Positions 7,472 through 56,542 of a stretch of 64,000 nucleotides of DNA are shown here, piece by piece. The notes under the pieces were generated by a model. That model saw nothing but the letters and a program-made list of their open reading frames with translations, did not search any database and was not told the DNA's origin. The position numbers were made by a program, and so were the translations under genes. Source of the DNA: a candidate division Kazan bacterium (GTDB taxonomy: Bacteria; Patescibacteriota; Kazan-3B-28); the NCBI GenBank assembly GCA_003647645.1, contig QMNG01000001.1, positions 7,938 to 71,937 of the forward strand, in the 5' to 3' direction. How positions within the stretch are numbered: the stretch's first letter is position 1; the number at the start of each line of letters is the position of its first letter.

Positions 7472-7499
7472 CCAACGGCTCAACGTGTTGAGCCGTTGG
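7472..7499 (+). terminator. Palindromic hairpin closing the accessory block
   Basis: ccaacggctcaac gt gttgagccgttgg followed by ggttttgg; near-identical palindrome again at 7862-7885. Confidence 0.55.
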
Positions 7500-7504
7500 G
7501 GTTT

Positions 7505-7524
7505 TGGGGTAGAATAAAACCATG
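7505..7524 (+). promoter_or_regulatory. Leaderless-type promoter
   Basis: tggggTAGAAT (7510-7515) then 6 nt then ATG 7522. Confidence 0.5.
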
Positions 7525-7863: not shown

Positions 7864-7924
7864 CGGCTCAACGCGTTGAGCCGTTGAGCTTATCCACCCA
7901 AGCGCGAGGCTTTTGACGGGGTTT

Positions 7925-7944
7925 TGGAGTAAAATAAAACTATG
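7925..7944 (+). promoter_or_regulatory. Leaderless-type promoter
   Basis: tggagTAAAAT (7930-7935) then 6 nt then ATG 7942. Confidence 0.5.
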
Positions 7945-12777: not shown

Positions 12778-13281
12778 TCACGCCATTACTACAAAAGGAC
12801 GGGATGCTGGTGTTTGCTTTTTGAGGCATCTGAGGAAGGGTGCCCAATAAGGCAATCACTAAATCACACAAGTTGAATAAGTTCTCGGTAGAAGGGGTAG
12901 GCTTCATGGACTCACATGTGTTTCAAATCTTTGCTGCCGGCGTTAGCCAGCACGCCAGATAGTCGTCTCCACGGAGGGAGACGACTTTTGCTTTTTGTAG
13001 AGAAAAGGGCCTGTATAAGTGGGGCACGGGGGTAGAGGAGCTCGGTGAACGCCAGCCCAAAGACTGGGTCGGCAGGATCTGACGATGATTCCTGTTTCTC
13101 CCCGCAGTTAAGCCACTGCGTTAACAAAAGGCTTTATTGTTTATTTTGATTGGGGGTGGGTTTTATATTTTTAATTTCAAGTCATTAATATTTTCTTTAA
13201 ATAGCGGGAGGGATAAATACCTCAGCCGGGTGAGGTGTTTGGCGCGGCGCGGCGCCCTGAATCCTACATAGTTTGGGGTTT

Positions 13282-13302
13282 TGGGAGTAAAATAAAAATA
13301 TG
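13282..13302 (+). promoter_or_regulatory. Leaderless-type promoter
   Basis: tgggagTAAAAT (13288-13293) then 6 nt then ATG 13300. Confidence 0.5.
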
Positions 13303-15535: not shown

Positions 15536-15564
15536 AAACAAACAAACTTCGAAGTTTAAGCTTG

Positions 15565-18429
15565 ATGAGAGACACAATAGAGGTTCGGGGGGCGAGAGAA
15601 CATAACCTCAAAAATATTAATGTTGATATCCCCAAGAACAAGGTAGTAGTTATTACCGGTCTTTCAGGTTCTGGAAAAAGTTCTTTAGCTTTTGATACTA
15701 TATATGCCGAAGGACATCGGCGATATGTTGAATCGCTGTCGGCCTATGCCCGGCAGTTTTTGGGGCTGACCAATAAGCCGGATGTGGATAGCATAGAAGG
15801 ATTAAGTCCCGCGATTTCAATTGATCAAAAATCGTCCGGGAGCAATCCCAGATCGACTGTCGGCACCACCACGGAAATATATGATTACCTGCGATTGCTA
15901 TACTCTCGTATCGGAATTCCACATTGCCCAAAGTGTGGCAATAAAGTTGTTCGCCAGAGCATTGACCAGATTATTCAGCAGATTTTGCCGTTAAAGCTGG
16001 ATGAGGCCAAGATTTTGGCGCCGATTGTAGTAGATAGAAAGGGAGAATTTAAACAGGAGCTGGCAGATATTAAAAAGATGGGATATGTGCGGGTGATGAT
16101 AGATGGCATCATGCGTGAGTTGGATGAAAAGATTGTTTTAGATAAGAATAAGAAGCACAGCATTGATGTGGTGGTGGATAGGCTAAGCCTAAAAGTGGCC
16201 AGCCAGGATGAGAGAGTTCGGTTAGCGGACTCGGCAGAAACGGCGCTGAAACTGGGCGGCGGCAAGATGAAAATCACCAATGGTGACAAGATCTCTAACC
16301 CCAAGAGCTCTTCAGATCACCAAGAATGGTTCTTTTCTGAAACTTTGGCCTGTCCCAAGTGCGATATTTCTATTCCTGACCTTGAGCCGAGGCATTTTTC
16401 TTTTAATAGTCCCCACGGTGCCTGCCCTCGCTGTACTGGCTTGGGTGTGACGATGGAACTGGATCCTGATTTGCTAATTCCTAATAAGCGTTTGAGTATA
16501 GCCGAGGGAGCAATCCGTCCTTGGGGAGCCAATATGACAAGCGGCGGAGGCTGGAACCATCGCTTGCTGGAATCGGTGGCGAAAAAGTTTAAATTTGATA
16601 TTAATGTTCCGGTTGAAAAACTGGATAAAAAATCCTTGAAAATAGTTCTGTATGGAACCGGCGATGAGAAAGTGAAAGTATTTTACGACAGCCCGCAAGG
16701 CCGGAAGATGGAGTACAGCACTAAGTTTGAGGGGGTGATTCCCAATTTGATGCGGCGATATAAAGAGACCGACTCAGAATTTATTCGGGCGGAAATTGAG
16801 CGGTATATGGTGAGCAAAGTATGTCCCGAGTGCGGAGGAGCCCGGCTCCGCCCTGAGACGTTGGCAGTGACGGTAGATGGCAAGTCAATTGTTGATATAG
16901 CCCGAATGTCGATTCGAGATGCACTGAAGTTTTTTGCCAAACTAAAATTGAGCGGGCAAGATAAGACAATTGTTAAGCAGGTATTAAAGGAAATTGGCGA
17001 GCGTTTAGGGTTTTTACATAATGTGGGACTGGACTATTTAACACTAGATCGGCCAGCCAGCACCCTAGCCGGCGGTGAAGCTCAACGGATCCGTTTAGCT
17101 ACGCAGATCGGTTCCGGTCTTTCGGGCGTAATTTATATCTTAGACGAACCGTCGATCGGCCTGCACCAGTACGATAACGCTAAGTTGATTAAAACTTTAG
17201 TTAAATTAAAAGACCTGGGCAACACCGTTTTGATCGTGGAACATGATGAGGAAACGATTCGCTCTGCCGACTGGGTGATTGATGTCGGCCCCGGGGCCGG
17301 CAAGCATGGCGGCGAGATTGTGGCCGAGGGAACTGTCGCCAAAATAGAAAGGAGCAAAAAATCACTGACAGGGTTATATCTCTCCGGTAAGAAGAAAATT
17401 GAATTCTCCAGTACGAGGCGCAAACCCAACGGCAAGTCAATCAAGATAATGGGGGCATCAGAATTTAATCTCCGGAACATAAATGTGGATATTCCTCTGC
17501 AAATGTTTGTCTGCGTTACCGGCCTGTCTGGTTCTGGCAAGTCGACTTTAATTAATGAGATTTTGGCCAAAAAATTATCCCGTGTGTTACACGGAGCTCA
17601 TGCCGTGCCGGGAGCACATAAAAAAATTGAGGGCATTGAAAATCTAGACAAAGTGATCAATATTGACCAATCACCCATTGGCCGAAGTCCCAGAAGTAAT
17701 CCCTCGACTTACACTGGACTGTTTACTTATATTCGTGACTTGTTTGCCCAGTTGCCTGAAGCAAAATCCCGCGGCTATAGACAGGGGAGATTCTCTTTTA
17801 ATGTAAAAGGCGGGCGGTGCGAAAACTGCCATGGCGATGGAGTGATAAAAATTGAGATGCACTTTTTGCCGGATGTGTATGTACCATGCAGCGTGTGCGG
17901 GGGGCGTCGGTACAACAAAGAAACCTTGGAAATTCAATACAAAGGCAAAAATATCGCCGATGTTTTAGATCTGACCGTTAACGACGCCGCTGATTTTTTT
18001 GCCAACATTCCTCAGATAAAAGCCAAATTAGAAACCTTGCAGGAGGTAGGTCTGGGATATATAAAGCTCGGCCAGCCAGCGACTCAGCTGTCTGGCGGCG
18101 AGGCCCAGCGAGTGAAATTAGCAACAGAATTATCGCGTCGGGCGACTGGCAAAACCCTATATATTTTAGATGAACCGACAACCGGCCTGCATTTTGAAGA
18201 TGTTAAAAAATTGCTGAAGGTGTTGCACCATTTGGTAGAAAAAGGCAATACAATGCTGGTGATCGAGCACAATTTGGACGTAATTAAAACCGCTGATTGG
18301 ATCATTGATTTGGGCCCTGAAGGCGGGGACTTGGGAGGCAGAATAGTTGCGGAGGGCGCACCGGAACAAGTTGCCAAAGTAAAAGGTTCCTACACCGGTC
18401 GTTATTTGAAGAAAATGTTGAAGCAATAA
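15565..18429 (+). CDS. uvrA: Excinuclease ABC subunit A
   Basis: GARENLKN-type N-terminus ([10 protein letters not shown]), two Walker A sites ([18 protein letters not shown]), zinc fingers CPKCG and CxxCxGxG, two LSGGE ABC signatures. Confidence 0.97.
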
Positions 18430-18431
18430 AT

Positions 18432-18460
18432 TTGACCCGTATAGGCTAGCTTGATATATT
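18432..18460 (+). promoter_or_regulatory. Sigma70-like promoter
   Basis: TTGACC, 17-nt spacer ending in TGA, TATATT. Confidence 0.6.
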
Positions 18461-18466
18461 AGGCGC

Positions 18467-18687
18467 AGTACTCTTCATCAGTGAGTACTGCTCTCCTTAG
18501 AAGTCCGAGCTCATGTCATTCCATATTGTGGTGTGGATGGTGTGTGTGGTCATCAGATGATCTGCTGAGACTCCCAAGGTGGTCAAACCCTCCGGTCTAT
18601 CTACACCAAAGAGATTACTTCCTCCTAGTCCCGTTGGAATAGGCATTGCTTGGACAGGGGCTTCCTCCCCGGAAGCCCCGTTTTTTT
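18467..18687 (+). ncRNA. Candidate ~220-nt structured RNA or terminator-type leader upstream of ORF 18774
   Basis: Starts after promoter 18432-18460; hairpin gcagtactc...gagtactgc (18466-18491); ends in ggggcttcc-tcccc-ggaagcccc + ttttttt (18657-18687); no ORF of 60 aa or more. Confidence 0.35.
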
Positions 18688-18773
18688 ATAAATTTTTTTA
18701 TTGACTAATATCTTTGATACTGGCCTGATGAAAGTAGGACTATGAATCTTTTCTGTGAGAGAGGTGACATCTA

Positions 18774-19415
18774 ATGGGAGAGAGTACCTTGAGAGAAATT
18801 AAACTGTCTCAGTCGAGATGGTTTCAGAGAGAGCTCGCAATGTTTGAGAAGATCAATAAGTTTTGTGGAGGTGCATCCATTGTGCCGGATACGGCAGAGA
18901 CGGTTTGGCGTCCGGGATATGGTAGTCATCACCGTCTTATGCCATCAGGCCTAGGGTGGGAGCTGCTATTGGAGGGTTGTAGACGGGCTGGCATTAAGTA
19001 TAACTACCGGAGTTATTTTTTTCAGTCGTTGCCGACAGAAGCCGGGATAATTCATTGCGATTTCGAAAAAATTCTGCTCACGACAGACAGCGACTCTCGG
19101 CCCTTCATGCTCTATTATTCCGATCAAAAGAGATGGGTACGCGAGCAAGGCGGGGATATTCCAACTTCCGTCGAAGAGACGCTGTATATCCTATTGCGTT
19201 TCTATTTAGAGCAGAACCGGGTGCCGTTTGCCGCTTTCTGCATTCGTTGTCGCAATTCAGCCCAGGAATTTCGGGGCATACCGGCGGTTGAGTGGCAGGC
19301 AGAAAAAGGCCTGGCGGTAGTTTACACTTCAAATCATCCGAGCTGTTGTGCCACTGTTATTCCCCGCAAACTCTTTACCATACCTCAAATTATTGTTCCT
19401 TCCAGCTCTCCCTAA
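18774..19415 (+). CDS. Hypothetical protein inserted between uvrA and uvrC
   Basis: 213 aa; RBS gagagaggtga before ATG; Cys/Trp-rich, no recognisable motif. Confidence 0.45.
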   Translation: MGESTLREIKLSQSRWFQRELAMFEKINKFCGGASIVPDTAETVWRPGYGSHHRLMPSGLGWELLLEGCRRAGIKYNYRSYFFQSLPTEAGIIHCDFEKILLTTDSDSRPFMLYYSDQKRWVREQGGDIPTSVEETLYILLRFYLEQNRVPFAAFCIRCRNSAQEFRGIPAVEWQAEKGLAVVYTSNHPSCCATVIPRKLFTIPQIIVPSSSP

Positions 19416-19540
19416 AAAGAGCCTCGCTATATCTATTGATTGGGGCTCTTTCTTAATATTACAAGGGGACGCAAGACCAGAGATACAAGGCAACTGTAAA
19501 TCAATCCAGCCTCTTCATTTCTAAAGAACAAATGATAATG

Positions 19541-19569
19541 TTGACAGTGAGAGCGGATTTTGATAGCAT
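19541..19569 (+). promoter_or_regulatory. Sigma70-like promoter
   Basis: TTGACA, 17-nt spacer ending in TGA, TAGCAT. Confidence 0.5.
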
Positions 19570-19575
19570 GGCTAT

Positions 19576-19905
19576 TGTTGGCGGGAGTGCTTTATTTCCT
19601 GCCGATCTTACCACCTTGATGTCTATACTGCAGAACGGTGAGATGGATGTGCCTGTATGTCTGTCTGCAACACTCCCAGCTGCCTGCCTAATCTTGAGCA
19701 TTACAGGCGGATTAACCAACGTTGTCCCATAGGTGGACAATCGATGGGTTGGCGGCTAATAAGCTTACGAAGGGCTGAGATAGCTGGGATATTAGTGTTG
19801 CGATACCATCTGCAGTAGAGACCATATGAATTGTCTGGGTTGTTAGTACTCTTAGACATTCCAGGCAAGGGCCGACGGGACTTCTAACCGTCGGTCTCTT
19901 TTTTT
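19576..19905 (+). ncRNA. Candidate ~330-nt structured RNA or leader upstream of uvrC
   Basis: Long-range complementarity gggagtg (19575-19581):cactccc (19671-19677) and tctatactgcaga (19622-19634):tctgcagtagaga (19808-19820); terminator ccgacgg-gacttctaa-ccgtcgg + T-run at 19872-19905. Confidence 0.35.
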
Positions 19906-19950
19906 AAAAGAATGTTTGGCTCTGTTAAAACGAAAGGATAATATAAGGCC

Positions 19951-21765
19951 ATGAGGGAACAAGAATTGAAACGCCTACCTGATCAGCCCGGTGTCTATGT
20001 AATGAAGGATAGCCTCGGGAAGGTTTTATATGTGGGGAAAGCTAAAAACATCAGAAAGCGGGTAGCTTCGTATTTTAATAGACAGCAAAAGCCAGCCAAA
20101 ATAGTAAAATTAGTGGAGAAAATTCATAAGGTTGAGCCGATCGTGGTGAAGACGGAGACAGAGGCGCTGGTTTTAGAAAGTGAGTTAATTAAAAAGTATC
20201 GCCCGCCGTTCAATGTAGTGATGCGGGATGATAAGAATTATTTATACATTAGAATCAATCCCAAAGACAGTTTGCCTCAAATCCAATTGGTCCGCAGGGT
20301 GGCCAAGGACAAGGCAAAATATTTTGGTCCCTATGTTAATAGTAAATCAGTAAAAAGGACCATTCAGTTACTACAAAAGATTTTCCCGCTGTGCACTGCC
20401 AAGCGAGTCGGCCGAGCCTGCTTGAACTATCATTTAGGCATTTGTCCCGGTGTATGCATTGGTTTAGTAAGCAGCAAAGAGTACAAAAAGACAATTGATC
20501 AGGTAATAGATTTTTTGTCCGGGAAGTATGAAGAGGTCTTGAAATCAATGGCTCAAAAAATGAGCCATTTGTCTGAGTCCAAAAAGTTTGAACAGGCAGC
20601 TAGATTGCGCGACGCCATCAGGGCGATAAAAAATATCGGCGAACAGCAGCAGATAGTGACAGTTGATCTGAAAGCAAACCGGGATGTTATAGGGCTGACT
20701 CGCAAATTAAATAAGACGATTATATTGTTGCTGCAGATTCGGCACGGGAAGTTGCTGCATCAACAACAATACGTCATGGATTCTAGATATGAAGCCGGCG
20801 ACCCTGAGGTTATAGCCGGCTTTTTGCGGGATTACTACAGCCGGACGCAGGATTTTCCGAAAGAGGTGCTGTTGCCGGTTGCAATATTTGAAAATAATTT
20901 TTTTGAAGAATGGTTGAGCAATTTGGCCGGGCACAAGGTGGCTGTTACAAAACCGATTCGCGGCCGTAAACGGCGCCTAGTGGATTTAGCTATTCGCAAT
21001 GCCAAAGTGCGTTTTGAGGAAATGGCAAATAAATGGGGATTGGATAATCGGGGTGTAGGGGAAGGCGTTGAAAAGTTAAAGAAACTGCTGAAACTTAAAA
21101 AACTGAGCCGTATTGAGGCATACGACATTTCCAACTTTCAGGGAGCTGATTCGGTTGGTTCGATGGTGGTTTTTGAGCGGGGGAAAATGGATAAGAAGCA
21201 ATACCGGCGGTTTAGAATTAAGGGAGTTGTGGGTCCGAATGATTTTGCCTCGTTGACCGAAATTTTACGGAGGAGGTTTGAGCATAAAACGGGGGATGCT
21301 AAATTTGCCAAATTACCGGATCTGATTTTGATAGACGGTGGCAAGGGGCAGGTGAACGCAGCTAAGAAATCGCTGGGCAGATCTAAAATAAAAATTATCG
21401 GGATGGCAAAAAGGGGCTATAGTTCGCGTAAGGGCAGAGCTGCTTCCCCAACTCGGCGCGGTCCTGTAGATAGTTTGATAATAAATAATAAAATCGTGAC
21501 TTTGCCAAATCATAGTCCAGTGAAATACTTGCTTCAAAATATTCGGGATGAGGCGCACCGGTTTGCACTGAGCTATCATGTTCACATTCGTCGCAAGCGG
21601 ATGAGGGCTTCAGAATTTGAAAATATTCCCGGCGTCGGCCCGGCTACTCGCAGAAAACTGGTTAAAAAATTCGGTTCATTGGCAGCTGTTAAAAAAGCGG
21701 CAGAAAAAGACATCGCCAAAGTAGTCGGAAAAAGAAAAGCTGAGATGGTAAAAAATCAGTTGTAA
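19951..21765 (+). CDS. uvrC: Excinuclease ABC subunit C
   Basis: GIY-YIG N-terminus (GVYVMKD...VLYVGKAKNIRKRV), UVR domain (FEQAARLRD), C-terminal endonuclease and HhH region. Confidence 0.95.
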   Translation: MREQELKRLPDQPGVYVMKDSLGKVLYVGKAKNIRKRVASYFNRQQKPAKIVKLVEKIHKVEPIVVKTETEALVLESELIKKYRPPFNVVMRDDKNYLYIRINPKDSLPQIQLVRRVAKDKAKYFGPYVNSKSVKRTIQLLQKIFPLCTAKRVGRACLNYHLGICPGVCIGLVSSKEYKKTIDQVIDFLSGKYEEVLKSMAQKMSHLSESKKFEQAARLRDAIRAIKNIGEQQQIVTVDLKANRDVIGLTRKLNKTIILLLQIRHGKLLHQQQYVMDSRYEAGDPEVIAGFLRDYYSRTQDFPKEVLLPVAIFENNFFEEWLSNLAGHKVAVTKPIRGRKRRLVDLAIRNAKVRFEEMANKWGLDNRGVGEGVEKLKKLLKLKKLSRIEAYDISNFQGADSVGSMVVFERGKMDKKQYRRFRIKGVVGPNDFASLTEILRRRFEHKTGDAKFAKLPDLILIDGGKGQVNAAKKSLGRSKIKIIGMAKRGYSSRKGRAASPTRRGPVDSLIINNKIVTLPNHSPVKYLLQNIRDEAHRFALSYHVHIRRKRMRASEFENIPGVGPATRRKLVKKFGSLAAVKKAAEKDIAKVVGKRKAEMVKNQL

Positions 21766-36362: not shown

Positions 36363-36401
36363 ATTGGATAAAAGTCAGAAAACAAAATAAAATTAAATTA
36401 G

Positions 36402-44957: not shown

Positions 44958-44986
44958 TTGACTGAATTAATTATATGTGGTATAAT
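44958..44986 (+). promoter_or_regulatory. Near-consensus extended -10 promoter facing away from mfd
   Basis: TTGACT, 17-nt spacer ending in TGG, TATAAT; the best promoter match in the window; no plus-strand CDS follows. Confidence 0.65.
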
Positions 44987-44992
44987 GAAAAG

Positions 44993-45265
44993 ATAGGGAT
45001 ATATTTCCTATTACATGCTCCTCAAGGCATAGGGCATAGGCGGTAGAATCTTGCTCGCATTTGGACTATTCTGCCCTCCTTGAATAGATCAAGAACATGT
45101 GAGCAAGATTCCTCTGCTTATTCCTCTGAAATCCCAATCCTTTCATTCAAGTGTATGGATTTGGTAGGTTTCGGGCTATGGGGAGCTGGGGAAGCTTCGC
45201 TAGATTGGCCTTTGGGCCGTTCTGGCAAGCAACGGCGAAGGCGGGGCTTAGTCCCCGTTTTCGCT
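44993..45265 (+). ncRNA. Candidate ~270-nt ncRNA between mfd and pth (antisense to their spacer)
   Basis: Bounded by promoter 44958-44986 and hairpin cgggg-cttagt-ccccg + ttttcgctt (45242-45265); 11-bp helix gaatcttgctc:gagcaagattc enclosing ctattc-tgccctcctt-gaatag; two attcctct repeats. Confidence 0.4.
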
Positions 45266-45814
45266 TATAAATTTTTCATTAATTATTTGTTCGGTTCTTG
45301 CAATTGCAAAATTCATTTTTTTTATTTCAGAAATGGAGAATCTTCCAAGAACATAATCGCTGGTGCTTTTTATCTCTGAAGGTTTGTTGTGATGGTTGTC
45401 TGAGATGTCCGGCCGGCCCACCCCAATTCGAATCCGTTTAATGTCTGTGGTGTTCAAAGCGTCAATAATGGACTGCATACCTCTATGCCCAGCGCTGCTG
45501 CCTGTTTTTCGATAACGGACTTCACCGGTCGGCAGATCGACGTCATCATAAATAACCAAAACATTGTCGTCGGTCACATTAAAGTAACCAATCAACATCT
45601 TAACCGCTCTACCTGAATTATTCATAAAGGTAGTCGGTTTGGCAAGGATTAAATTATCAATTTCTGCAATTTCAGAATTACTTTTCTTATGAATTCTAAA
45701 ATTTGTCTTTAGTTTTCTGGCTAAATGATCAACCGCCATAAATCCCACGTTATGGCGAGTTTTATTATACTGCTTGCCGGGATTTCCGAGTCCAACAACT
45801 AGCTTACTTTTCAT
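45248..45814 (-). CDS. pth: Peptidyl-tRNA hydrolase
   Basis: LVVGLGNPGKQYNKTRHNVGF, NNSGRAV, DDVDLPTG; internal ATG 45814 preferred over 45841. Confidence 0.9.
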   Translation of the reverse strand: MKSKLVVGLGNPGKQYNKTRHNVGFMAVDHLARKLKTNFRIHKKSNSEIAEIDNLILAKPTTFMNNSGRAVKMLIGYFNVTDDNVLVIYDDVDLPTGEVRYRKTGSSAGHRGMQSIIDALNTTDIKRIRIGVGRPDISDNHHNKPSEIKSTSDYVLGRFSISEIKKMNFAIARTEQIINEKFISENGD

Positions 45815-46049
45815 TTTCGGGGTTTTCTTCTGATTTCTCATGTTTGTCGGCAGTAGTTTGTTCTATTTCCCCGCGTCTGTTGTAAGTTGGAAAAGGTTCT
45901 TTGCCTATTCCCTCTTTGTCATATCTATCCTGACCTTTACGGGTTTTGGGAACCGGCTCAACCTTCCCAACCTTTTTGGGAACATCATCCTCGCCATCCG
46001 GAAAGTAAGCCGGATTTAGACCCTCGCTGCCTCCGATTTTTTTTATCAT
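45804..46049 (-). CDS. Hypothetical charged, low-complexity protein
   Basis: 81 aa, no motif; overlaps the pth start region. Confidence 0.35.
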   Translation of the reverse strand: MIKKIGGSEGLNPAYFPDGEDDVPKKVGKVEPVPKTRKGQDRYDKEGIGKEPFPTYNRRGEIEQTTADKHEKSEENPENEK

Positions 46050-56211: not shown

Positions 56212-56542
56212 AAATACGACTCCTTAGGGTGCAATTCCAGAAATCACATAACTTTGTGCTTCTGGTGGCTTCAATATATCAAAAAGAAAATCATCCTGCA
56301 AGTATTTAGCTACCAGAGCCATATATTTGGTTATTTGGCATGCTGGAAATACGCCAAAAGCCTTTCAAACGACGAGGGCTAAATTGTATTTAACTTTGAA
56401 TTGCTTGCCTTGAAAATGGAGTATATTATAATTAAACGTCAAGTAGGGTCGAATCTATCTGCCGATAGGTAGACAAAGGGAAAATTATTGCTATGACATG
56501 TATTAGTTATGGCGGTCGTAATAAAATAATTGTATAAACTAT

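What the first reader, a model, noticed from the sequence alone, without database searches (positions are those of the whole stretch)
18430..19950. uvrA and uvrC are separated by an orphan gene flanked by two promoter-to-terminator non-coding units
Unit 1:
- TTGACC-17-TATATT promoter at 18432-18460.
- About 220 nt with a strong 5' hairpin and CU-rich boxes (ctccttag, cttcctcctag).
- GC-rich terminator at 18657-18687.
- ORF 18774-19415 follows ~87 nt later (213 aa, Cys/Trp-rich, no motif).

Unit 2:
- TTGACA-17-TAGCAT promoter at 19541-19569.
- About 330 nt with several long-range complementarities, for example 19622-19634 with 19808-19820.
- Terminator at 19872-19905.
- uvrC starts 45 nt later.

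The promoter, long structured leader, terminator and gene order is the layout of transcription-attenuation riboswitches. The units could instead be independent sRNAs. I found none of the conserved cores of known riboswitch classes, RNase P, tmRNA, SRP or 6S RNA.

A structured 330-nt leader in front of uvrC would be unusual.
Basis: partly seen in the sequence, partly recalled or inferred. Interest (0 to 1): 0.55.

Follow-up and report, generated by a model that had tools for sequence, protein, structure and literature searches.

The report
Two unclassified RNA genes between uvrA/uvrC
In a tiny-genome 'Kazan' (CPR) bacterium, the gap between two DNA-repair genes holds two strongly folded RNA units of unknown function, each with its own promoter and terminator. 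They flank a gene that is not an orphan but a stray member of a hypervariable-protein (DGR target) family.

Summary
Both units have a 10/12 sigma-70-like promoter with a TG extension, a hairpin at the predicted 5' end, a strongly folded body (z -4.1 and -6.5) and a strong intrinsic terminator.

- **The ORF is not an orphan.** It has 79 homologs. In two of them the 3' end is the variable repeat of a diversity-generating retroelement (DGR), lying next to Avd and a reverse transcriptase. The window holds no template repeat, reverse transcriptase or Avd, so this copy stands alone or is a remote target.
- **A riboswitch or attenuator reading is disfavoured.** There is no Rfam match, and no antiterminator competes with either terminator. 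uvrC and its orthologs carry a -10-like box 6-9 nt before the ATG, even where no leader exists.
- **Independent small-RNA genes fit best.** A third unit of the same design lies at 44958-45275 (z -8.8).

In Kazan relatives the uvrA-uvrC spacer ranges from about 50 to 1300 nt and often carries unrelated promoter-to-terminator RNAs. One of these (L030/L041) is conserved well above synonymous sites. No homolog of unit 1 or unit 2 was found, so covariation cannot be tested and their function is inferred.

The parts
15562..18429 (+). uvrA (context). Its stop codon lies 2 nt before the -35 box of unit 1, and uvrA has no terminator of its own before terminator 1.
   Evidence: Pfam UvrA_DNA-bind and UvrA_inter domains; 80% aa identity to UvrA of L030.
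18432..18460 (+). Promoter-like site P1: TTGACC-17-TATATT with a TG extension.
   Evidence: 10/12; one of only three TG-extended 10/12 sites in 20 kb.
18465..18687 (+). Unit 1 RNA, about 220 nt. It has a 5' hairpin at 18465-18491 and a single-stranded CU-rich linker at 18492-18502 (UCUCCUUAGAA). A closed multi-helix domain spans 18503-18655 and contains a second CU box (CUUCCUCCUAG, about 18618-18628). The terminator is 18657-18679 plus U7.
   Evidence: Folds (z -4.1 and -3.8). Anti-SD-like pentamers: 6 against 1.1 expected. No Rfam hit. Codon score negative in all frames of its 53-aa ORF. No gene called there in the ENA assembly.
18774..19415 (+). 213-aa gene, a stand-alone member of a CPR family of DGR variable (target) proteins. 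The RBS AGAGGUG lies 8 nt upstream. The VR-equivalent segment is residues 162-198, about nt 19257-19367.
   Evidence: 79 homologs and alignment A1 with conserved motifs. AlphaFold pLDDT 91.6, with weak C-type-lectin fold hits. Homologs carry VR/TR pairs with A-specific mismatches next to bAvd and RVT_1. Codon score is weak but best in frame.
19419..19453 (+). Weak hairpin after the ORF stop codon (AAAGAGCC...GGCUCUUU, then a U-rich tail). It may be the ORF's own weak terminator.
   Evidence: Read directly from the sequence; the terminator scan did not report it.
19541..19569 (+). Promoter-like site P2: TTGACA-17-TAGCAT with a TG extension.
   Evidence: 10/12.
19576..19905 (+). Unit 2 RNA, about 330 nt. 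It has a 5' hairpin at 19577-19606 and a linker at 19607-19620 (CUUACCACCUUGAU). A large domain is closed by the helix 19621-19634 / 19809-19822. A 3' hairpin lies at about 19831-19868. The terminator is 19869-19897 plus U7 (19899-19905).
   Evidence: Fold z -6.5 and inverted repeat I1. No Rfam hit. Not a template repeat for the ORF. No homolog in phages, plasmids or viral contigs.
19916..19944 (+). Weak promoter-like elements for uvrC: TTGGCT, then GATAAT/TAATAT ending 6-9 nt before the ATG.
   Evidence: Read from the sequence. Below the scanner threshold (8/12). A -10-like box is conserved at the same distance in five Kazan uvrC orthologs.
19951..21765 (+). uvrC (context).
   Evidence: Pfam GIY-YIG and UvrC domains; identical to an NCBI 'candidate division Kazan bacterium' protein.

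Best explanation
The 1.5-kb uvrA-uvrC interval is a lineage-specific insertion into a spacer that is hypervariable across Kazan (CPR) bacteria. It carries three separate transcription units.

**Units 1 and 2.** These are independent, probably abundant, structured small-RNA genes. Each is driven by a near-consensus extended -10 sigma-70-type promoter. Each starts with a hairpin that would protect the 5' end, folds into a compact closed domain, and ends at an efficient intrinsic terminator.

**The gene between them.** It encodes a stand-alone member of a family that serves elsewhere in CPR as the hypervariable target of diversity-generating retroelements.

**Shown here.**
- The sequence signals and the strand-specific excess folding.
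- The lack of coding signal in unit 1.
- The absence of any antiterminator.
- The DGR-target homology of the ORF.
- The variability of the spacer in relatives.

**Inferred.**
- That discrete RNAs are actually made.
- That unit 1, like the third unit at 44992-45275, uses its exposed CU-rich anti-Shine-Dalgarno-like boxes to pair with ribosome-binding sites of mRNAs in trans.
- Unit 2 lacks such boxes, and its mode of action is unknown.
- uvrC is most likely transcribed from its own promoter as a leaderless or near-leaderless mRNA rather than by read-through of unit 2.
For: **Signals and folding in the window**
- Promoters and terminators.
- Fold z-scores of -4.1 and -6.5, with no shuffle folding as well.
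- The + strand folds much better than the - strand, and both spacers are among the most structured of 21 gaps.
- A hairpin sits at the predicted transcription start in units 1, 2 and 3 and in L030 and L041.
- A third unit of identical design lies between unrelated genes (promoter 11/12 with TG, z -8.8).
- Terminators are free-standing, with no alternative pairing.
- CU/anti-SD pentamers are enriched in units 1 and 3 (13 against 4.1 expected, Poisson P about 3e-4).
- No genes are called inside the units.

**uvrC promoter**
- A -10-like box lies 6-9 nt before the uvrC ATG in the window and five relatives.
- Many other genes in the window show the same leaderless-type layout.

**Relatives**
- The spacer is about 50-110 nt in L010 and P0010.
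- It is 347-349 nt with a promoter-to-terminator RNA in L030 and L041.
- It is 930 nt in L032, with an RNA unit at z -5.4.
- It is 1297 nt in L034, with at least two units.
- The L030/L041 RNA is 86-87% identical, against 59% at uvrA third positions. It has non-triplet indels and 2 compensatory plus about 7 compatible pair changes. This shows that such spacer RNAs can be under selection.
Against: - No transcript data are available.
- No homolog of unit 1 or unit 2 was found anywhere: blastn and alignments, covariance-model searches, RNAalifold, and phage, plasmid and viral collections. There is therefore no conservation or covariation evidence for these two RNAs themselves.
- Only one genome, assembled several times with identical sequence, carries them.
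- In 160-nt sliding windows the units are not outliers.
- ORF 18774 has no convincing promoter of its own (best is 8/12, read). It may therefore depend on read-through of terminator 1, which would make unit 1 partly a leader.
- The CU-box enrichment is not corrected for the C+U-rich composition of the units.
- Unit 2 contains a 66-codon ORF with a positive codon score of +0.15. That ORF starts upstream of P2, has no RBS and is not called as a gene.
Confidence: 0.5

Rival explanations
1. The units are cis-acting attenuator leaders. Unit 1 would be a ligand-, protein- or RNA-controlled terminator switch for ORF 18774, and unit 2 the same for uvrC. Read-through of the terminator would then deliver the only, or the main, transcript of the downstream gene.
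For: - The order promoter, long structured RNA, terminator, gene is present.
- ORF 18774 has no promoter scoring 9/12 or better between terminator 1 and its ATG.
- GAAGUCC (about 18500-18506) could pair with the 5' arm of terminator 1, giving 7 bp including one G.U (read).
- An 11-bp complementarity links unit 1 (18627-18637) to the 5' arm of terminator 2 (I2). This could in principle allow RNA-driven antitermination.
Against: - No known aptamer class matches, even at E<=10.
- Energy minimisation finds no antiterminator. With the 3' arm blocked, the 5' arms stay essentially unpaired, at a cost of 12.7-15.1 kcal/mol.
- Both terminators are strong, with 9-10 bp stems and U7.
- uvrC orthologs keep a -10-like box just before the ATG whether or not a long spacer exists.
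- A unit of identical design (unit 3) ends in a terminator that faces the 3' end of a convergent gene, so it cannot be a leader.
- The short complementarities are within chance expectation, about 0.1-1.5 occurrences by my estimate.
Confidence: 0.17
2. The units have no function of their own. They would be debris of an inserted or decaying element, for example what remains of a DGR cassette or another mobile element that brought in the variable-protein gene. Their promoter-like, terminator-like and folding signals would then be leftovers or chance.
For: - The interval is absent from the closest relatives with a readable spacer.
- The ORF has atypical codon usage, with a per-codon score of 0.05 against 0.10-0.37 for the window's genes, and atypical amino-acid composition.
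- The ORF's VR-equivalent segment has lost several residues that are conserved in the family, which fits a gene cut off from its retroelement.
- No homologs of the units were found.
Against: - Two complete sets of TG-extended promoter, start-site hairpin, closed domain and 9-10 bp/U7 terminator, in the right order and on the same strand, are hard to obtain from decay.
- There is no trace of reverse transcriptase, Avd or a template repeat in the units.
- There is no trace of the protein family in relatives' spacers.
- The same design recurs at 44958-45275.
- An RNA in the same position in relatives is under purifying selection.
Confidence: 0.15
3. One or both units are highly divergent versions of a housekeeping RNA (6S RNA, RNase P RNA, SRP RNA or tmRNA) that Rfam models fail to recognise in this deep-branching lineage.
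For: - The sizes (about 190-300 nt without the terminator), strong promoters and strong folding suit abundant stable RNAs.
- Unit 1 contains AGAAGUCCGAGCUC, which loosely resembles the RNase P CR-I motif GAAAGUCCGGGCUC. This comparison rests on my memory of the E. coli sequence.
- None of these RNAs was found elsewhere in the 64-kb window.
Against: - No match to any of these families even at E<=10 with relaxed filters.
- ARAGORN finds no tmRNA.
- The pairing partner of the CR-I-like stretch does not have the RNase P P4 register, and unit 1 is too short (read).
- Housekeeping RNAs should be alignable among Kazan relatives, but the spacer RNAs are not.
- Some relatives have no RNA at this site at all.
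Confidence: 0.06
4. Unit 2 (or unit 1) is the template-repeat RNA of a diversity-generating retroelement that diversifies ORF 18774.
For: - Unit 2 occupies the position where the template repeat lies in the homologous locus L040: downstream of the target gene, after its terminator and on the same strand.
Against: - No stretch of either unit, on either strand, resembles the 3' part of the ORF, even when template adenines are treated as wildcards. Scores equal the shuffle means.
- No such match exists anywhere in the 64-kb window.
- tblastn finds no reverse transcriptase or Avd in the window.
Confidence: 0.02

Closest known systems
Independently transcribed bacterial small RNAs with C/U-rich seed boxes that pair with Shine-Dalgarno regions (for example RsaE/RoxS of Firmicutes; comparison from general knowledge)
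   Same: - Own sigma-70-type promoter and an intrinsic terminator.
- 100-300 nt long and non-coding.
- Exposed C/U-rich boxes complementary to GGAGG (units 1 and 3).
- A stabilising 5' hairpin.
   Different: - No sequence or structural homology was found (Rfam).
- The bodies are much larger and more intricately folded.
- Unit 2 has no CU box.
- No targets and no chaperone are known in CPR.
- Many genes of this genome appear to lack an SD altogether.
Transcription-attenuation riboswitches and leaders
   Same: The linear order is promoter, long structured RNA, intrinsic terminator, gene.
   Different: - No known aptamer is present.
- No antiterminator alternative exists.
- uvrC seems to have its own promoter.
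- The same design occurs where no downstream gene exists (unit 3).
The 'L030-type' spacer RNA of other Kazan bacteria (L030/L031/L041), found here and not in Rfam
   Same: - Same genomic slot between uvrA and uvrC.
- Same promoter type (TTGAC-N17-TGnTAnnnT).
- A hairpin at the transcription start, a closed multi-helix body of about 240 nt and a strong terminator abutting the uvrC promoter.
   Different: - No detectable sequence or structural similarity to unit 1 or unit 2.
- The L030-type RNA has direct evidence of purifying selection. The window's units have none.
DGR variable (target) proteins with a C-type-lectin fold, such as Mtd, TvpA and the CPR DGR clade (PMC8144416, PMC5006420)
   Same: - ORF 18774 is homologous over its whole length to proteins whose C-terminal ~37 residues are VRs paired with adenine-mutagenised TRs next to Avd and a DGR-type RT.
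- The top fold hits are C-type lectins, though weak.
   Different: - No TR, RT or Avd lies within 64 kb.
- Several scaffold residues of the VR region have changed.
- The N-terminal ~50-70 residues present in most homologs are missing.
- The gene is flanked by RNA genes and DNA-repair genes instead of a retroelement.

Membership tests
Transcription-attenuation riboswitch / leader | Aptamer or leader matching a described class | tested here: not met
   Rfam 15 gathering scan of the window and an E<=10 scan of 18380-20000 returned only noise.
Transcription-attenuation riboswitch / leader | Mutually exclusive terminator and antiterminator structures | tested here: not met
   With the 3' arm blocked, the 5' arms of terminators 1 and 2 find no stable partner. 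The cost is 12.7 and 15.1 kcal/mol.
Transcription-attenuation riboswitch / leader | Downstream gene depends on read-through and has no promoter of its own | tested here: inconclusive
   uvrC has a conserved -10-like box 6-9 nt before its ATG in the window and five relatives. ORF 18774 has no site of 9/12 or better between terminator 1 and its ATG.
Transcription-attenuation riboswitch / leader | Leader conserved with the regulated gene in relatives | tested here: not met
   uvrC orthologs have no spacer RNA (L010, P0010) or unrelated ones. Homologs of the ORF in L036, L038 and L040 have different upstream regions.
Independent small-RNA gene | Own promoter and own intrinsic terminator bounding a non-coding stretch | tested here: met
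   at the level of sequence patterns. No genes are called inside the units.
Independent small-RNA gene | Stable structure beyond chance, specific to the transcribed strand | tested here: met
   z -4.1 and -6.5; the + strand folds better than the - strand.
Independent small-RNA gene | A discrete transcript with defined ends | not testable with these tools
   No transcriptome data are available.
Independent small-RNA gene | Conservation or covariation in relatives | tested here: inconclusive
   No homologs exist among the loci held. The nearest readable relative is 57% identical in UvrC. A different RNA in the same slot is conserved.
DGR variable (target) protein family (for ORF 18774) | Homology to proteins whose 3' end is a VR paired with a TR differing at TR adenines, next to a DGR RT and Avd | tested here: met
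   - phmmer E-values reach 8.6e-30 for the best homolog.
- In L040, 16 of 17 mismatches in a 110-nt VR/TR pair fall at TR adenines, with bAvd and an RVT_1 protein carrying LGNLTSQ nearby.
- L037 has a VR/TR pair plus bAvd.
DGR variable (target) protein family (for ORF 18774) | C-type-lectin fold of the VR-bearing domain | tested here: inconclusive
   The model is confident (pLDDT 91.6). The best Foldseek hits are C-type lectins, but at E 0.36 or worse and TM 0.2-0.3.
DGR variable (target) protein family (for ORF 18774) | Cognate TR, RT and Avd in the same genome (an active target) | tested here: not met
   None is present in the 64-kb window. The rest of the 354-kb contig could not be read.
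DGR template-repeat RNA (for units 1 and 2) | A stretch matching the target's VR except at adenines | tested here: not met
   Adenine-wildcard local alignments score at the shuffle mean.
Housekeeping RNAs (6S, RNase P, SRP, tmRNA) | Match to the family covariance model or ARAGORN | tested here: not met

The most novel reading that the evidence does not exclude
The uvrA-uvrC spacer of Kazan/CPR bacteria is a dedicated landing site for a previously undescribed class of large RNAs. This class would include units 1 and 2, the L030-type RNA, and unit 3 elsewhere in the window. These RNAs are about 200-330 nt, strongly expressed, fast-evolving and highly structured. They would act in trans, for example as anti-Shine-Dalgarno sponges or regulators, or through RNA-RNA antitermination of the unit 2 terminator to tune uvrC. 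This would be the first regulatory-RNA system described in these reduced, episymbiotic genomes.
Probability: 0.12. Interest if true: 0.7.

Novelty: new member of a known kind. Interest (0 to 1): 0.42.

Why it matters
- The paper library searched here returned nothing relevant on regulatory RNAs in CPR/Patescibacteria. These genomes are so compact that 0.9 kb of non-coding but signal-rich DNA between two repair genes is conspicuous. If the units are expressed RNAs, they are entry points for studying RNA-based regulation in this lineage.
- The analysis re-annotates a 'hypothetical orphan' as a stand-alone relative of DGR hypervariable proteins.
- It shows that the uvrA-uvrC junction is a hot spot for gain and loss of RNA genes and for recombination.
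- It points to leaderless transcription as a common mode in this genome.
- None of this changes a major paradigm unless the RNAs prove to have an unusual function.

Tried and rejected
**Known RNA families**
- Rfam gathering and relaxed scans of the window interval, unit 3, and the spacers of L030, L032, L034, L041 and L027 returned nothing.

**Homologs of the units**
- blastn with word size 7 against the window and all loci found no paralogs or orthologs.
- Pairwise local and global alignments with shuffle controls among seven spacer RNAs gave nothing convincing. The best were z 2.6 and 3.6 in 21 comparisons, as short patches only.
- RNAalifold on six units gave zero consensus pairs.
- Covariance model R1 (unit 1) and model R2 (L030-type) hit only themselves, with filters on and off.
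- Phage and plasmid blastn and one viral-contig pattern scan found nothing.

**DGR hypothesis for the units**
- An adenine-wildcard scan of the window and local alignments were negative. tblastn with the RT and Avd proteins of L040 and L037 was also negative.

**The ORF**
- Remnants of the ORF family in relatives' spacers: none.
- Pfam, PHROGs, NCBIfam and PDB sequence searches gave no family.
- The word-indexed protein search found only the protein itself. This is what made it look like an orphan, and the full HMMER scan overturned it.
- A single-sequence AlphaFold model was useless, with pLDDT 42.

**Other ideas**
- A target-site duplication (GAAAATGTTGA / GATAATGTTGA) was judged to be chance.
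- The resemblance of unit 1 to RNase P CR-I was rejected on pairing register and size.
- A first z-score scan timed out. The rerun with 12 shuffles per window is noisy.
- The search for related loci with alignment A1 on viral contigs failed because no stretch was conserved enough.
- The look-up of P0001 found no contig.
Full report
**What is there.** The window comes from a 'candidate division Kazan' bacterium, a member of the Candidate Phyla Radiation. Its UvrC is identical to an NCBI protein of that name.

uvrA (15562-18429) and uvrC (19951-21765) are confirmed by Pfam. Between them lie 1521 bases.

- **Promoter-like sites.** They lie at 18432-18460 (TTGACC-17-TATATT) and 19541-19569 (TTGACA-17-TAGCAT). 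Both score 10/12 and carry a TG extension. In the first 20 kb of the window only three sites reach 10/12 with TG, and two are these.
- **Terminator 1.** It has a 9-bp stem with 7 G-C pairs at 18657-18679, followed by T7.
- **Terminator 2.** Its stem spans 19869-19897 with a 9-nt loop, followed by T7. The pattern scan allows loops of at most 8, so it missed this terminator. Folding shows it.
- **Folding.** The predicted RNAs fold far better than dinucleotide shuffles. Unit 1 gives -81 kcal/mol and z -4.1. Unit 2 gives -136.5 kcal/mol and z -6.5. No shuffle folds as well.
- **Strand specificity.** The two spacers rank among the most structured of 21 intergenic gaps in the window. The excess is specific to the + strand, which points to RNA-level rather than DNA-level structure.
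- **Source of the signal.** The signal comes from long-range helices such as 19621-19634 / 19809-19822. In 160-nt windows the units do not stand out.
- **Start-site hairpins.** Both RNAs begin with a perfect hairpin exactly where transcription should start.

**The ORF is not an orphan.** The word-indexed protein search found only the protein itself. No Pfam, PHROGs, NCBIfam or PDB sequence match exists.

A full HMMER scan of 1.84 billion representatives then found 79 homologs, with E-values reaching 8.6e-30 for the closest one. They share conserved motifs: RE, PT.xGV.CD, RPF, QGGDGLTSVEE.LYL, RCRN and PRKF. With this alignment AlphaFold gives pLDDT 91.6, against 42 without it.

The genomic context of the homologs identifies the family.
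- **L040.** The homolog is followed by a 110-nt repeat of its own 3' end. In this repeat 16 of 17 differences fall at adenines of the downstream copy. It lies next to a bAvd gene and a reverse transcriptase carrying the LGNLTSQ motif.
- **L037.** This locus shows the same kind of repeat, plus bAvd.

These are diversity-generating retroelements (DGRs). DGRs are abundant in CPR, and their variable regions sit in C-type-lectin folds (PMC8144416). The best Foldseek hits of the model are C-type lectins, but they are weak, at E 0.36 or worse.

ORF 18774 is therefore a member of a DGR variable-protein family. Its VR-equivalent is residues 162-198.

The 64-kb window contains no template repeat, reverse transcriptase or Avd. 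Several scaffold residues of the VR segment have changed, and the codon usage is atypical. The gene is thus a stand-alone, possibly fossilised, copy or a remote target. The rest of the genome could not be examined.

**The units are not DGR RNAs and not known RNAs.**
- Adenine-wildcard alignments of both units against the ORF score at the shuffle mean.
- Rfam finds nothing, even at E<=10.
- ARAGORN finds no tmRNA.
- Phage, plasmid and viral collections give nothing.

**Leader or independent gene?** Three observations argue against attenuation.

1. *No antiterminator.* When the 3' arm of either terminator is blocked, the 5' arm finds no partner. The RNA simply loses 12.7 or 15.1 kcal/mol.
2. *uvrC has its own -10-like box.* GATAAT/TAATAT ends 6-9 nt before the ATG. 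The five Kazan orthologs examined all have (C/T)ATAAT at the same distance, with or without a long spacer. Many other genes in the window show this SD-less, -10-adjacent layout. Leaderless transcription therefore seems common, and uvrC need not depend on read-through.
3. *A third unit of the same design exists.* It lies at 44958-45275. It has TTGACT-17-TATAAT with TG, a start-site hairpin, CU-rich boxes and a 284-nt body with z -8.8. Its 13-bp terminator faces the end of a convergent gene, so it cannot be a leader.

Unit 1 could still double as a leader. ORF 18774 has no promoter of 9/12 or better of its own.

**Relatives.** The order uvrA, uvrC, small ORF, sigma-like HARE-HTH protein, DUF8128 ATPase is conserved across Kazan-like genomes. 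The uvrA-uvrC spacer is not.

| Locus | Spacer | Content |
|---|---|---|
| L010 | about 50-80 nt | none |
| P0010 | 109 nt | none called (no DNA) |
| L030, L041 | 347-349 nt | one promoter-to-terminator RNA (z -3.9, -4.2) |
| P0015 | 352 nt | unknown (no DNA) |
| L032 | 930 nt | an RNA unit (z -5.4) plus a reverse response regulator |
| L034 | 1297 nt | at least two units |
| P0003 (63% relative) | at least 176-196 nt | all contigs read break here |

None of these RNAs resembles unit 1 or unit 2, or the others, in sequence or structure. The one exception is the pair L030/L041.

That pair is informative. The RNA is 86-87% identical with non-triplet indels, while uvrA third positions are 59% identical. 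The RNA shows 2 compensatory and about 7 compatible changes against 4 disruptions. RNAs in this slot can therefore be under purifying selection.

The same two contigs have UvrA 96.5% identical but UvrC only 59% identical. This marks a recombination breakpoint at the RNA/uvrC junction.

**How it most likely works.** Units 1 and 2 are independent, strongly promoted, terminator-bounded structured RNA genes. The signals and folding are shown. Expression is inferred.

Unit 1 and unit 3 expose anti-Shine-Dalgarno-like boxes, with 13 pentamers against 4.1 expected. The most economical mechanism is pairing in trans with ribosome-binding sites. This is inference only.

Unit 2 has no such boxes and no assignable mechanism. 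An 11-bp complementarity links unit 1 to the 5' arm of the unit 2 terminator. It is within chance expectation and is recorded as unexplained.

**Novelty and score.** The RNAs belong to no described family. The paper library searched returned nothing relevant on regulatory RNAs in Patescibacteria.

As a kind of thing, however, they are ordinary: bacterial sRNA-like genes next to a DGR-family protein. Without transcripts or homologs their function is open. I rate this as new members of a known kind, of moderate interest.

Noticed in passing
window 44958-45275 (+): A third promoter-to-terminator non-coding unit. It has TTGACT-17-TATAAT (11/12, with TG), a hairpin at the predicted start, several CU-rich boxes and a 284-nt RNA with MFE -131.8 and z -8.8. 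Its 13-bp terminator at 45234-45265 faces the 3' end of the convergent gene 45248-45841. No Rfam hit and no similarity to units 1 or 2.
   Followed up: partly
L030 4690-4995, L031 and L041 3296-3600: A conserved RNA of about 280 nt between uvrA and uvrC of other Kazan bacteria. It is 86-87% identical while uvrA third positions are 59% identical. It has non-triplet indels and 2 compensatory pair changes, and gives no Rfam hit. It is a candidate new RNA family unrelated to the window's units.
   Followed up: partly
L030 versus L041, whole loci: A mosaic: UvrA is 96.5% identical but UvrC only 59% identical between the same two contigs. Nucleotide identity drops from about 87% to about 50-60% exactly at the start of uvrC, so a recombination breakpoint lies at the spacer/uvrC junction.
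   Followed up: partly
window 7497-7521, 7917-7941, 13275-13299; also 56530-56542, 36385-36401, 19937-19950: Many genes lack a Shine-Dalgarno sequence and have a TAnAAT box 4-9 nt before the ATG. Three small genes share the upstream motif GGGGTTTTGGnGTAnAATAAAAC-N-ATG. This suggests widespread leaderless mRNAs and a repeated promoter cassette.
   Followed up: no
L036 3424-4272, L038 5001-5654, window 18774-19415: Homologs of the DGR-type variable protein lie next to DNA-repair or replication genes in three unrelated CPR lineages: after uvrB, next to the polA 5'-3' exonuclease, and between uvrA and uvrC. This could be coincidence or a preferred neighbourhood.
   Followed up: no
L036 versus L037: The identical 282-aa protein (P0200) sits in two different downstream contexts. 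PFOR genes follow in the JGI contig. A TR (interrupted by Ns) plus bAvd follows in the NCBI scaffold. This reflects either strain variation or a scaffolding artefact.
   Followed up: no
L026-L029, position 1: All contigs read for the closest relative (UvrC 63% identical, four listed of six) end 176-196 nt upstream of uvrC, next to a CCCGCCCG...CGGGCGGG hairpin. This is consistent with population-level variation or a repeat at this spacer.
   Followed up: no
window 18627-18637 and 19872-19882: Unit 1 single-stranded AGUCCCGUUGG is complementary (11 bp including one G.U) to the 5' arm and loop of the unit 2 terminator. It is within chance expectation, but would allow RNA-RNA antitermination toward uvrC.
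   Followed up: partly
window 58611-58395 (-): A small Cys-rich ORF (MPRRDGTGNMGQGFGRGLGRGQGRGMAGRPLGSDVCTCPKCGHKEPHNQRGVPCTQIKCPKCGTLMTGEFC) follows a TG-extended promoter downstream of tRNA-Gln. It resembles a zinc-ribbon protein and was not examined.
   Followed up: no
L038 5496-5555: The VR-equivalent region of the homolog P0164 contains an internal 30-nt tandem duplication at 73% identity.
   Followed up: no
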